In this document: piece by piece, positions 28,330 through 30,166 of the stretch
Layout of the letters: every line of letters starts with the position of its first letter
How positions within the stretch are numbered: the first letter of the stretch is position 1
From: Trypanosoma brucei
Taxonomy: Eukaryota
Direction of reading: 5' to 3'
DNA: 64,000 nt
Assembly (NCBI GenBank): GCA_000002445.1
Contig: CP000068.1
Span: forward strand, 224,001-288,000
Translations under genes and position numbers: made by a program
The notes under the pieces: model-generated
What the model was told of the DNA's origin: nothing
Databases searched by the model: none
Seen by the model: the letters and a program-made list of their open reading frames with translations, nothing else

Positions 28330-29055
28330 ATGGCGTCTGTGTCTAGGCGCGACGAGTCGGGATGGCGTCGACGTTTGAGAGCCCTACGTGAAGAAATAGC
28401 GCGAGAAGGCAGCCCGGAGCGGGAACTCTCCATTAAGAAGCTTCGGAACAAAGCGGTAGATTTTCTCAAGGGGAGTGGGCCTGGCAGTGGAGACAGCGGT
28501 GACTTCTTTGACGACGCTGAAACGACGCTGCTTCGTGAGATCAGCGATGACTCCCGTTTGAATATGCCCGACAACGAAGTGCAACCTGCGCCGTGGACCC
28601 AAGATTCCGCGAGCAGAGTGATTTACCGCTACTCGCTACTTTCCAGTGGGCAAGACGGTGAGATGGCTTGTGCTAATGATCAGTCGCTGGGGCTGCAGGA
28701 GCTCTTGGGACAGCACGTGTCGAAGTGGGTCAAGAAGCCGGAAGCGCTGATGACCCCCACATCTACCCGTCAGGGATCGGCCTCTGCAACGTCGTCTGAT
28801 TCAGCTTTTGACTCAACGTCGCCAACCCCCACAGAATTATCTGATTCAGCAGTAGACCCGACAGCACCGAACTTCAAAGCGCCACGTGAATCAGCAGGAG
28901 ACTCCACAGCACCAACCTCTACCGACAAGGCATCCATGCCTCAGTTGCTCAACAGTGGTGAGAAGTGTCCAACGCAATCTGTGAATGATCATTCGGAGAG
29001 TAGTACTGAGAGCGAGGAGGAGCGGCATGAGGAGGGGCTTTTTGAGATTGATTGA
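28330..29055 (+). CDS. Hypothetical Ser/Thr/Pro-rich protein, copy 1 of a tandem pair, about 241 aa. The start was reassigned from a TTG to the ATG beginning MASVSRRDESGW.
   Basis: The ORF shares a 465 bp identical core with the next gene. The C-terminal half is S/T/P/D-rich (STSPTPTELSDSAVDPTAPNFKAPRESAGDSTAPT). Confidence 0.6.
   Translation: MASVSRRDESGWRRRLRALREEIAREGSPERELSIKKLRNKAVDFLKGSGPGSGDSGDFFDDAETTLLREISDDSRLNMPDNEVQPAPWTQDSASRVIYRYSLLSSGQDGEMACANDQSLGLQELLGQHVSKWVKKPEALMTPTSTRQGSASATSSDSAFDSTSPTPTELSDSAVDPTAPNFKAPRESAGDSTAPTSTDKASMPQLLNSGEKCPTQSVNDHSESSTESEEERHEEGLFEID
28453..28917 (+). repeat. Direct repeat unit A: 465 bp, identical to 29582..30046 with a 1129 bp period, inside the tandem paralogues.
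   Basis: A base-by-base comparison of the two stretches, from gcggtagattttctcaagg to cacagcaccaacc, shows no mismatch. Confidence 0.9.
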
Positions 29056-29461
29056 TGTGGATGCTTCAGGTGGATGATCTTTGAGTCGCTTGCATTCTTG
29101 AGATAACTGCTTTTTTAAACAATATACTTAATGAATTAAGTTCACATACATGTATTCTTGTGTGGAGGATCATAACTGGGGGTGGCTGTGGAGTTGTGTA
29201 TAGCCATATGAGTGCTCTGAGGAGATGCCACACGCACACCACAGTTCACAGACGAAATTGGTACACTATATATACCTCCCTTTGAATAATCTGCCACTCA
29301 GCTTCGACCACGATATCTTCCAGCAAGGTAAGACGTGGAGAAAAGGAACCATTTGTAAAGACAGAGTGGTACAAATTAGTGGTACTTCCCGTGTTAGGTG
29401 TCCTTGACCGTCCCCCCCTCGCCAAGTAGGAGTTTGATACAGCGCAGTCGTCTTGCTTTTT

Positions 29462-30166
29462 ATGTTCAGTGCAGGAGCTAGTGAGGAAGCGTACCTCCAG
29501 CAGCTACGCGGCATCCGCCAAAAACTTCACCTGAAGAACAGTGAGGTGTGGGAGCAAACTGTGGATTCTTATTTGTGTGATGCGGTAGATTTTCTCAAGG
29601 GGAGTGGGCCTGGCAGTGGAGACAGCGGTGACTTCTTTGACGACGCTGAAACGACGCTGCTTCGTGAGATCAGCGATGACTCCCGTTTGAATATGCCCGA
29701 CAACGAAGTGCAACCTGCGCCGTGGACCCAAGATTCCGCGAGCAGAGTGATTTACCGCTACTCGCTACTTTCCAGTGGGCAAGACGGTGAGATGGCTTGT
29801 GCTAATGATCAGTCGCTGGGGCTGCAGGAGCTCTTGGGACAGCACGTGTCGAAGTGGGTCAAGAAGCCGGAAGCGCTGATGACCCCCACATCTACCCGTC
29901 AGGGATCGGCCTCTGCAACGTCGTCTGATTCAGCTTTTGACTCAACGTCGCCAACCCCCACAGAATTATCTGATTCAGCAGTAGACCCGACAGCACCGAA
30001 CTTCAAAGCGCCACGTGAATCAGCAGGAGACTCCACAGCACCAACCCCCGCACCGCTACCTCCCGCCGGCTCGGGTGTCCCCCTTCCCCCAACTACAGCC
30101 GGAAAGAGTCATCAAGATTGTTCGCGGCTGTCGCGGAAACGCTCTTACCAGTTTCTCAAATCGTAA
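29462..30166 (+). CDS. Hypothetical Ser/Thr/Pro-rich protein, copy 2 of the tandem pair, about 234 aa. The start is at the ATG beginning MFSAGASEE.
   Basis: Same core as copy 1, with divergent N- and C-termini. The C-terminus is Pro-rich (PAPLPPAGSGVPLPPTTAGKS). Confidence 0.55.
   Translation: MFSAGASEEAYLQQLRGIRQKLHLKNSEVWEQTVDSYLCDAVDFLKGSGPGSGDSGDFFDDAETTLLREISDDSRLNMPDNEVQPAPWTQDSASRVIYRYSLLSSGQDGEMACANDQSLGLQELLGQHVSKWVKKPEALMTPTSTRQGSASATSSDSAFDSTSPTPTELSDSAVDPTAPNFKAPRESAGDSTAPTPAPLPPAGSGVPLPPTTAGKSHQDCSRLSRKRSYQFLKS
29582..30046 (+). repeat. Direct repeat unit B, identical to 28453..28917.
   Basis: See unit A. Confidence 0.9.

What the first reader, a model, noticed from the sequence alone, without database searches (positions are those of the whole stretch)
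28330..30166. Tandem paralogue pair homogenised over an exact 465 bp core, with unrelated termini.
Two adjacent small genes share a perfectly identical 465 bp segment (28453-28917 and 29582-30046), encoding 155 identical residues. This core is the S/T/P-rich central portion from VDFLKGSGPGSGDSGDFFDD to DSTAPT. Their N-terminal roughly 40 residues and their C-terminal tails are completely different (acidic ESEEERHEEGLFEID versus Pro-rich PAPLPPAGSGVPLPP). Zero substitutions against divergent flanks indicates recent or ongoing gene conversion restricted to the core, or a recent partial duplication. The gap between the copies is only about 400 bp, unusually short for independent trans-splicing and polyadenylation.
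Basis: seen in the sequence. Interest (0 to 1): 0.55.

Follow-up and report, generated by a model that had tools for sequence, protein, structure and literature searches.

The report
Gene conversion between tandem trypanosome paralogues
Two neighbouring Trypanosoma brucei genes of unknown function (Tb927.5.720 and Tb927.5.730) are old duplicates whose central 465 bases are kept identical by one copy overwriting the other, a well-documented habit of tandem genes in this parasite, so the finding is real but ordinary.

Summary
Window 28453-28917 and 29582-30046 are 465/465 identical, and the flanks at the same offset are at random-level identity. The window is T. brucei brucei TREU927 chromosome 5, and the genes are Tb927.5.720 and Tb927.5.730. 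Comparison with T. b. gambiense DAL972 supports gene conversion. In the termini, 75 and 61 sites group the sequences by orthologue and none by strain. In the core, 3 sites group them by strain and none by orthologue. The DAL972 upstream copy keeps a diverged 50-bp patch at the 5' edge that TREU927 has overwritten with downstream-copy sequence. A recent partial duplication and an assembly artefact in TREU927 are both contradicted. The termini are not wholly unrelated. Single-copy syntenic orthologues exist in T. congolense, T. vivax, T. grayi and T. rangeli, and both N-termini descend from theirs. The 406-bp gap is not a problem, because published spliced-leader mapping places an acceptor site for each gene. 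The single chimeric gene in the T. equiperdum OVI assembly is probably a short-read collapse. Partial conversion in T. brucei tandem genes is already described, so this is a new member of a known kind. Protein function remains unknown.

The parts
28330..29055 (+). CDS of Tb927.5.720 (241 aa), the upstream paralogue. It has a derived Arg-rich N-terminus and an acidic C-tail.
   Evidence: ORF and translation. Exact match to XP_844746.1 / Tb927.5.720. TrypTag homology arms and one qPCR primer from the literature map uniquely to its termini.
29462..30166 (+). CDS of Tb927.5.730 (234 aa), the downstream paralogue. Its N-terminus is closest to the orthologues of other species, and its C-tail is Pro-rich and basic.
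   Evidence: ORF. Exact match to XP_844747.1 / Tb927.5.730. N-terminus is 41% identical to T. congolense, against 22% for the 720 N-terminus.
28453..28917 (+). Converted core, copy 1 (the acceptor in the TREU927 lineage).
   Evidence: 465/465 identical to 29582-30046. Three sites group by strain and none by orthologue.
29582..30046 (+). Converted core, copy 2 (the inferred donor of the last event in TREU927).
   Evidence: DAL972 copy 2 carries the TREU927-type sequence across the 5' patch, while DAL972 copy 1 does not.
28453..28505 (+). 5' edge patch. It is identical between the copies in TREU927 and the OVI contig. In DAL972 copy 1 it is diverged (15 substitutions plus a 3-bp indel), which marks a strain-specific extension of the conversion tract.
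28797..28923 (+). Three imperfect 45-nt (15-aa) S/T/P-rich units inside the core. The same units lie at 29926-30052 in copy 2. DAL972 copy 1 lacks one unit, a 45-bp deletion placed at 28861-28905.
28197..28199 (+). AG dinucleotide and first transcribed base of the predominant spliced-leader acceptor site of Tb927.5.720 (5'UTR 131 nt). A long polypyrimidine tract lies upstream.
   Evidence: Kolev 2010 Table S12: chr5:252199. Window coordinate = chr5 coordinate - 224000, checked on seven genes.
29300..29302 (+). AG dinucleotide and first transcribed base of the predominant spliced-leader acceptor site of Tb927.5.730 (5'UTR 160 nt). It lies in unique spacer sequence.
   Evidence: Kolev 2010 Table S12: chr5:253302.
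29056..29461 (+). Unique 406-bp spacer. It holds the 720 3'UTR (inferred to be about 100 nt), the polyadenylation-to-splicing interval and the 730 5'UTR.
   Evidence: No DNA similarity to the region upstream of 720 or downstream of 730. Acceptor site at 29302. The poly(A) position is inferred from the 142-nt median poly(A)-to-acceptor distance in Kolev 2010 and was not observed.

Best explanation
Tb927.5.720 and Tb927.5.730 are tandem paralogues. They arose by whole-gene duplication, in the T. brucei lineage, of a small and fast-evolving gene that other Trypanosoma species carry as a single copy at the same chromosomal position. Their central 465 bp is homogenised by recurrent non-allelic (intrachromosomal) gene conversion through homologous recombination. 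The termini have diverged too far to support heteroduplex formation, so tracts stop at the edges of the remaining homology and the termini keep evolving independently. In the TREU927 lineage the most recent event most likely copied the downstream gene into the upstream gene across the whole 28453-28917 interval. That event overwrote a diverged 5' patch and a one-unit deletion that the T. b. gambiense upstream copy still shows. Each gene is processed into its own mRNA. Shown: the identity, the concerted pattern, the strain-specific tract edge, the orthologues and the two acceptor sites. Inferred: the direction of the last event, the recombination machinery, and any selective reason for keeping two sets of termini.
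For: (1) There are 0 differences in 465 bp, while the flanks at the same offset are at 16-46% identity. (2) Quartet of TREU927 and DAL972 copies. N-terminus: 75 sites group by orthologue and 0 by strain. C-terminus: 61 by orthologue and 0 by strain. Core 28506-28917: 3 sites by strain (28547/29676, 28744/29873, 28808/29937) and 0 by orthologue. Paralogue differences are 0 (TREU927) and 3 (DAL972), against orthologue differences of 5 and 4. (3) Flank divergence between the strains is 0.93%. That predicts about 4.3 paralogue differences in 465 bp if no conversion had occurred since the split, giving P(0) of about 0.013. (4) The tract edge differs between strains. DAL972 copy 1 has 15 substitutions plus a 3-bp indel in 28453-28505, whereas DAL972 copy 2, both TREU927 copies and the OVI contig share one sequence. 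(5) The duplication is a whole-gene one. Syntenic single genes lie next to the Tb927.5.740 orthologue in T. congolense, T. grayi (flanked on the other side by the Tb927.5.710 orthologue), T. vivax and T. rangeli. They align from the N-terminus through the core. The 730 N-terminus matches T. congolense (p=0.001) and T. grayi (p=0.004), the 720 N-terminus matches T. rangeli (p=0.02), and the two T. brucei N-termini match each other (p about 0.01). (6) Two copies are real. DAL972 and a second NCBI assembly (RHW72419.1 and RHW72371.1) encode both genes. RNA-seq acceptor sites were reported for each gene, and the 730 site lies in unique spacer. TrypTag lines were made with arms unique to the 720 termini. 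(7) From the literature: partial conversion and mosaic copies are common in T. brucei tandem arrays, found in 21 of 47 arrays by Jackson 2007 (PMC1855330). Subspecies-specific mosaics are reported by Jackson et al. 2010 (PMC2854126). (8) A second tandem pair in this window, two protein kinases, shows the same mosaic pattern.
Against: Only three informative core sites separate the strains, and only two usable independent haplotypes (TREU927 and DAL972) could be read at the DNA level. No outgroup can polarise the three core changes. The donor direction rests on parsimony: 15 clustered substitutions cannot arise within 1% divergence, and no third family member exists as a donor. No read-level data were available for TREU927. 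The exactness of the identity therefore rests on the quality of a finished Sanger assembly, in which single reads would span 465 bp; that point is my own knowledge. The C-tails have no detectable homology to each other or to the outgroup tails. Their origin, by divergence, by replacement or at a duplication breakpoint, is unresolved. The recombination pathway itself was not observed.
Confidence: 0.87

Rival explanations
1. A recent partial (segmental) duplication copied only the 465-bp core next to or into an unrelated ORF, and no gene conversion is involved.
For: There is zero divergence between the copies and both boundaries are sharp. The C-tails and all non-coding flanks show no DNA similarity.
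Against: The same two-gene structure with the same divergent termini is present in DAL972, which differs by 0.93% in the flanks, yet the TREU927 copies differ by 0%. Three core sites differ between strains in both copies. The 5' boundary differs between strains. Both N-termini are homologous to the N-termini of orthologues in other species, so the downstream gene is not an unrelated ORF. A simple tandem duplication of a unit would leave one flank identical, and none is.
Confidence: 0.04
2. It is an assembly artefact in TREU927. Either a single gene (or two alleles) was expanded into a tandem pair, or two slightly different cores were forced to one consensus.
For: Exact repeats are classic sites of misassembly. 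The T. equiperdum OVI assembly shows a single gene at this position.
Against: The independent DAL972 shotgun assembly has two copies that differ from each other by 3 SNPs, a 45-bp indel and the 5' patch. A further assembly encodes both proteins. The spacer carries an experimentally mapped acceptor site. Tagging arms and a qPCR primer unique to the 720 termini worked in published experiments. The OVI assembly was made from 2x150-bp reads with Velvet at k=33, and contigs under 1 kb were discarded. A 465-bp repeat would collapse under those conditions and the 664-bp loop would be thrown away.
Confidence: 0.03
3. Strong purifying selection on the core alone, without sequence exchange, keeps the copies identical.
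For: The core contains the most conserved part of the family: ETxLLxEI, W...S.V.YRY and the helix before KW.
Against: Selection on protein sequence cannot hold synonymous sites identical over a period in which the N-termini fell to 24% amino-acid identity. The core also includes about 60 residues of low-complexity S/T/P-rich sequence that is absent from the orthologues and predicted disordered. The three between-strain changes shared by both copies are all nonsynonymous, which is the opposite of tight constraint.
Confidence: 0.02
4. Side question: the single chimeric gene of T. equiperdum OVI (720 N-terminus + core + 730 C-terminus) is a real deletion, made by unequal crossing-over between the two cores, rather than an assembly collapse.
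For: The OVI segment equals TREU927[27753-28917] joined to [30047-31166], with only 2 SNPs in 2285 bp. This is exactly the product expected from a crossover in the core. Crossovers and conversions share intermediates.
Against: It is also exactly the product expected from a de Bruijn collapse. The reads were 150 bp, k was 33, and contigs under 1 kb were discarded. The OVI reads could not be examined.
Confidence: 0.25

Closest known systems
Tandem gene arrays of T. brucei under concerted evolution with partial (mosaic) gene conversion (Jackson 2007, PMC1855330; Jackson et al. 2010, PMC2854126)
   Same: The paralogues are tandem, on the same strand and in one polycistronic unit. Paralogues within a genome are more alike than orthologues between subspecies inside a tract. 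The breakpoints are discrete. Divergent UTRs and flanks limit the tract. The mosaics are subspecies-specific.
   Different: Jackson et al. 2010 describe the previously defined arrays as those with more than three gene copies. This two-gene pair was not found in the main text of either paper. Here the tract covers only the middle of the CDS, so both protein termini escape conversion, not just the UTRs.
Phosphoglycerate kinase array of T. brucei (PGKA/B/C), as summarised in Jackson 2007
   Same: These are tandem genes whose shared body is homogenised by conversion. The copies differ in terminal or internal segments, and those differences give isoforms with different localisation.
   Different: There is no sequence relationship. 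PGK function and the role of its divergent parts are known, whereas no function or differential role is known for 720 and 730. The PGK middle copy is described as a chimaera of its two neighbours, and here there are only two genes.
The protein-kinase pair in the same window (45299-46291 and 48390-49388). By coordinates these are Tb927.5.790 and Tb927.5.800. From my own knowledge they are the casein kinase 1 isoforms CK1.1 and CK1.2.
   Same: A near-identical internal block (45581-46227 against 48651-49297) is flanked by diverged ends of the CDS.
   Different: The block is not perfectly identical and contains a diverged island. Another ORF lies between the two genes. The family is a well-known enzyme.

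Membership tests
Tandem paralogues homogenised by non-allelic gene conversion (concerted evolution) | Paralogous copies lie close together in the same genome and share a tract of homology | tested here: met
   Two same-strand CDSs lie 406 bp apart with a 465-bp identical block.
Tandem paralogues homogenised by non-allelic gene conversion (concerted evolution) | Inside the tract, paralogues within a genome are more similar than orthologues between genomes | tested here: met
   Core: 3 sites group by strain and 0 by orthologue. Paralogue differences are 0 and 3, against orthologue differences of 5 and 4.
Tandem paralogues homogenised by non-allelic gene conversion (concerted evolution) | Outside the tract, orthology is retained, so the phylogenetic signal changes at the breakpoints | tested here: met
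   N-terminus: 75 sites by orthologue and 0 by strain. C-terminus: 61 and 0.
Tandem paralogues homogenised by non-allelic gene conversion (concerted evolution) | There are independent events, or variable tract ends, among lineages | tested here: met
   The 5' edge is at 28453 in TREU927 and OVI but at about 28506 in DAL972 copy 1.
Tandem paralogues homogenised by non-allelic gene conversion (concerted evolution) | Non-reciprocal transfer by homologous recombination is observed directly | not testable with these tools
   This needs marked-copy experiments or pedigree and clone sequencing.
Recent segmental or partial duplication | The duplicate is absent from close relatives, or the copies diverge no less than expected for their age. 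For a tandem event, at least one flank is co-duplicated. | tested here: not met
   The structure is shared with DAL972. The copies are less diverged than the strains are. No flank similarity was found.
Assembly duplication artefact | The second copy has no independent support, such as other assemblies, transcripts or unique junctions | tested here: not met
   Support comes from DAL972 and a further assembly, a mapped acceptor site in the spacer, and unique tagging arms. TREU927 reads themselves were not available.
'T. brucei spp.-specific protein' (the annotation of the DAL972 copies) | There is no orthologue outside T. brucei | tested here: not met
   Syntenic homologues were found in T. congolense, T. 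grayi, T. vivax and T. rangeli. Local alignment scores are 82-163, against 31 +/- 5 for shuffles. phmmer E-values are 4e-7 to 3e-4.
Any Pfam or Rfam family | A match above threshold | tested here: not met
   Pfam gave no family for either protein. Rfam gave no match at E<=0.1 in 26000-32500.

The most novel reading that the evidence does not exclude
The pair may be a division of labour at the level of protein domains. Conversion keeps one shared core, which comprises a small conserved module plus a T. brucei-specific disordered S/T/P-rich region. Selection meanwhile maintains two alternative N-terminal helical hairpins and two alternative C-tails, one acidic and one basic/Pro-rich. The two isoforms would then differ in partners, localisation or mRNA regulation. 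The abrupt, strain-invariant 3' boundary might mark the original duplication breakpoint, where one C-tail was recruited from formerly non-coding DNA. Nothing here excludes this reading and nothing here demonstrates it.
Probability: 0.2. Interest if true: 0.4.

Novelty: new member of a known kind. Interest (0 to 1): 0.22.

Why it matters
The biological interest is modest. It is a clean two-gene example of partial gene conversion, with a datable recent event and a strain-specific tract edge. That makes it usable as a natural reporter of intrachromosomal recombination in T. brucei.

The practical consequences are more immediate:
- Short reads, RNAi fragments, peptides and primers that fall in 28453-28917 or 29582-30046 cannot tell the two genes apart. 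One published qPCR primer does hit both copies.
- The 'T. brucei spp.-specific' label on the DAL972 copies is contradicted by orthologues in other Trypanosoma species.
- The T. equiperdum OVI gene model TEOVI_000613600 is probably a chimera produced by repeat collapse and should not be read as a lineage-specific gene fusion.

Tried and rejected
- **Pfam:** no family for either protein or for several neighbours.
- **Rfam and Tandem Repeats Finder:** nothing on the region.
- **Bacterial promoter and terminator scan:** irrelevant for a trypanosome and ignored.
- **DNA-level local alignments:** I compared the upstream region, spacer, downstream region and both termini against each other. Nothing scored above shuffles.
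- **C-tail comparisons:** the two tails against each other gave p=0.05, and against the outgroup tails were not significant. I had considered a 'complementary retention' pattern, in which 730 keeps the ancestral N-terminus and 720 the ancestral C-terminus. I dropped it because the C-terminal half has no statistical support.
- **Frameshift test:** other-frame translations of the two tails show no evident relationship by eye; this was not scored.
- **AlphaFold2 on a 6-sequence alignment:** pLDDT 52 and pTM 0.19. Only an N-terminal helical hairpin was moderately confident, so I ran no fold search, because the matches would be meaningless.
- **Supplementary tables:** those of Siegel 2010 and of the ZFP3 paper are not held. 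The Kolev poly(A) tables are truncated before chromosome 5, so the 720 poly(A) site was not obtained.
- **Second assembly:** the DNA of the assembly that carries both DAL972-type proteins could not be displayed, because the tool merges similar places. I believe from memory that the RHW accessions belong to T. b. equiperdum IVM-t1, but I could not verify this.
- **Profile and full-library protein searches:** no relatives were found beyond the five Trypanosoma species.
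Full report
**What is there.**
The window is part of Trypanosoma brucei brucei TREU927 chromosome 5. The translations of 28330-29052 and 29462-30163 are exact matches to Tb927.5.720 (241 aa) and Tb927.5.730 (234 aa). Seven published splice-site coordinates map onto AG dinucleotides when 224,000 is subtracted. All convincing ORFs lie on the + strand, as expected for one polycistronic unit.

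Positions 28453-28917 equal 29582-30046 (465/465), and both ends stop at a mismatch. Identity at the same offset outside the block is 16-46%. The block is in frame and gives 155 identical residues. Each copy also holds three imperfect 45-nt units that encode an S/T/P-rich stretch.

**Comparative evidence for gene conversion.**
Protein searches found relatives only in trypanosomes. T. b. gambiense DAL972 has both genes in the same order (225 and 234 aa).

I aligned the four sequences and counted how the variable sites group them:

| Region | Sites grouping by orthologue | Sites grouping by strain |
|---|---|---|
| N-terminus | 75 | 0 |
| Core, 28506-28917 | 0 | 3 |
| C-terminus | 61 | 0 |

- The three core sites are 28547/29676, 28744/29873 and 28808/29937. 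All three are nonsynonymous.
- Paralogues differ at 0 sites in TREU927 and 3 sites in DAL972. Orthologues differ at 5 and 4 sites.
- Flank divergence between the two strains is 0.93%. With no exchange since their split, about 4.3 paralogue differences would be expected in 465 bp, so P(0) is about 0.013.

The 5' end of the tract differs between strains. In 28453-28505, DAL972 copy 1 carries 15 substitutions and a 3-bp indel relative to DAL972 copy 2, both TREU927 copies and the T. equiperdum OVI contig. It also lacks one 45-bp unit. Fifteen clustered substitutions cannot arise within about 1% divergence, and no third family member exists to serve as donor. The simplest history therefore has two steps. 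An older conversion covered roughly 28506-28917. A later event in the TREU927/OVI lineage then copied the downstream gene into the upstream one across the whole 465 bp. The direction of that last event is an inference.

**Origin of the pair.**
The DAL972 copies are annotated as 'T. brucei spp.-specific', but that label does not hold. Immediately upstream of the Tb927.5.740 orthologue there is a single small gene in four other species:
- T. congolense, 155 aa.
- T. grayi, 170 aa. Here the Tb927.5.710 orthologue lies on the other side, so the single-copy state is certain.
- T. vivax, 150 aa.
- T. rangeli, 177 aa.

In the T. congolense, T. vivax and T. rangeli contigs the small gene lies close to the contig end, so a second upstream copy cannot be excluded in those species.

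These proteins align with 720 and 730 from the N-terminus through the conserved part of the core. Local scores are 82-163, against 31 +/- 5 for shuffles, and phmmer E-values are 4e-7 to 3e-4.

The 730 N-terminus is 41% identical to the T. congolense N-terminus. The 720 N-terminus is only 22% identical to it and 24% identical to the 730 N-terminus. Shuffle tests support homology of both N-termini to the outgroups. So the whole gene was duplicated and the upstream copy's N-terminus then evolved fast.

The two C-tails, and the S/T/P-rich extension shared in the core, have no counterpart in the other species. The tails are not detectably related to each other at the protein or DNA level, and their origin is open.

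**Rivals.**
- A recent partial duplication is contradicted by four results. The structure is shared between strains, the copies are less diverged than the strains are, the boundary shifts between strains, and no flank is co-duplicated.
- An artefact in TREU927 is contradicted by several lines of evidence. DAL972 has two non-identical copies. A second NCBI assembly encodes both DAL972-type proteins. An acceptor site has been mapped in the unique spacer. Published reagents that target the unique 720 termini exist.
- Selection alone cannot keep synonymous sites identical while the N-termini fall to 24% identity.

**The T. equiperdum OVI 'fusion'.**
OVI has one gene with the 720 N-terminus, the core and the 730 C-terminus. 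Its DNA equals TREU927[27753-28917] joined to [30047-31166], with 2 SNPs in 2285 bp. That is the product expected from a crossover in the core, and equally the product expected from a repeat collapse. The assembly used 2x150-bp reads, Velvet at k=33, and discarded contigs under 1 kb (PMC5278650). Reads of that length cannot span a 465-bp repeat, and the 664-bp loop would be thrown away. I therefore rate a collapse as about three times more likely than a real deletion. Either way, the N720-to-core junction in OVI shows the TREU927-type patch, so the last conversion predates the TREU927/OVI separation.

**The intergenic gap.**
Kolev et al. 2010 (PMC2936537, Table S12) list predominant spliced-leader acceptor sites at chr5:252199 (5'UTR 131) for Tb927.5.720 and chr5:253302 (5'UTR 160) for Tb927.5.730. 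These correspond to window 28199 and 29302, each directly after an AG with pyrimidine-rich sequence upstream.

The distance from the 720 stop codon to the 730 acceptor site is 246 nt. For the two neighbouring gene junctions in the same window it is 174 and 257 nt. The same paper gives a median poly(A)-to-acceptor distance of 142 nt and 3'UTR lengths from 10 nt upwards. A 720 3'UTR of about 100 nt is therefore plausible. This is inferred, because the poly(A) tables held here are truncated. The gap is short but ordinary, and the two genes yield separate mRNAs.

**Function.**
There is no Pfam match. AlphaFold2 on the small family alignment gives a moderately confident N-terminal helical hairpin (residues 5-46), a few short elements in the conserved core, and disorder from about residue 134 onwards. 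Mean pLDDT is 52.

TrypTag reports 'endocytic, cytoplasm' for C-terminally tagged Tb927.5.720. The N-terminal tag gives an unspecific cytoplasm, flagellar cytoplasm and nuclear lumen signal (PMC9981465 supplement). The row for Tb927.5.730 was not in the stored part of the file. A ZFP3 study used Tb927.5.720 as a qPCR target (PMC3326296). Its forward primer matches both cores and its reverse primer is specific to 720. Function therefore remains unknown.

**Comparison with what is known, and verdict.**
Concerted evolution with partial, mosaic conversion is documented for T. brucei tandem arrays. Jackson 2007 found it in 21 of 47 arrays and cites PGK as the classic case of functionally distinct copies. 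Jackson et al. 2010 report subspecies-specific mosaics, describing the arrays as those with more than three copies. The two gene identifiers turned up in the main text of only one held paper, as a primer target.

The protein-kinase pair at 45299-46291 and 48390-49388 in this same window shows the same mosaic pattern. The finding is thus a real and neatly resolved new member of a known kind. Its interest is low to moderate, and its main value lies in the annotation and mapping caveats it raises.

Noticed in passing
window 45299-46291 and 48390-49388 (near-identical block 45581-46227 against 48651-49297): A second tandem paralogue pair, both protein kinases, shows a mosaic pattern. By Kolev coordinates they are Tb927.5.790 and Tb927.5.800, which from my memory are casein kinase 1 isoforms. 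A block of about 650 bp is 96-100% identical, with a diverged island at about 45981-46080, and the CDS ends are diverged. The proteins are 80% identical overall. An unrelated 181-aa ORF (47201-47746) lies between them. This looks like the same partial-conversion process.
   Followed up: partly
L002 6001-6708 (T. equiperdum OVI, CZPT02001031.1): Gene model TEOVI_000613600 is an exact chimera of the 720 N-terminus, the core and the 730 C-terminus. Given 2x150-bp reads, Velvet at k=33 and the removal of contigs under 1 kb, it is probably a repeat-collapse artefact and not a real fusion or deletion.
   Followed up: partly
L004 168-635, L005 6936-7448, L006 29-481, L007 319-852: Single syntenic orthologues of 720/730 are seen at this position in T. 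congolense, T. grayi, T. vivax and T. rangeli, although the DAL972 copies are annotated 'T. brucei spp.-specific protein'. The family evolves fast (25-34% identity between species). The T. brucei proteins carry an extra S/T/P-rich extension of about 70 residues.
   Followed up: yes
window 28547/29676, 28744/29873, 28808/29937 against 28701, 28818, 29647: All three core differences fixed between TREU927 and DAL972 in both copies are nonsynonymous (D/G, A/P, F/S). The three differences private to a single DAL972 copy are all synonymous. The sample is too small to test, but it hints at relaxed or positive selection on the core.
   Followed up: no
L001 6001-6678 (DAL972 orthologue of Tb927.5.720): The upstream copy in DAL972 lacks exactly one 45-bp (15-aa) repeat unit relative to all the other copies. 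The internal repeats therefore also vary in unit number.
   Followed up: partly
window 28671-28690 and 29800-29819: The forward qPCR primer published for Tb927.5.720 (PMC3326296) matches both genes, and only the reverse primer (28958-28977) is gene-specific. More generally, short reads, RNAi fragments or peptides from the 465-bp core cannot be assigned to one gene.
   Followed up: yes
window 55207-55241: A (TA)n microsatellite of about 17 units lies in an intergenic region.
   Followed up: no
window 51966-51992 and 57752-57778: A short inverted repeat of about 27 nt, with arms 5.8 kb apart, was seen in the k-mer scan. It was not examined.
   Followed up: no
window 21574-23637 and 33857-36079: The neighbouring genes carry an F-box-like domain and a PSP1 C-terminal domain. 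Gene order from the 965-aa protein to the PSP1 protein is conserved in T. grayi, and the part from the Tb927.5.740 orthologue to the PSP1 protein is also conserved in T. vivax and T. rangeli. This conserved order allowed the synteny argument.
   Followed up: partly
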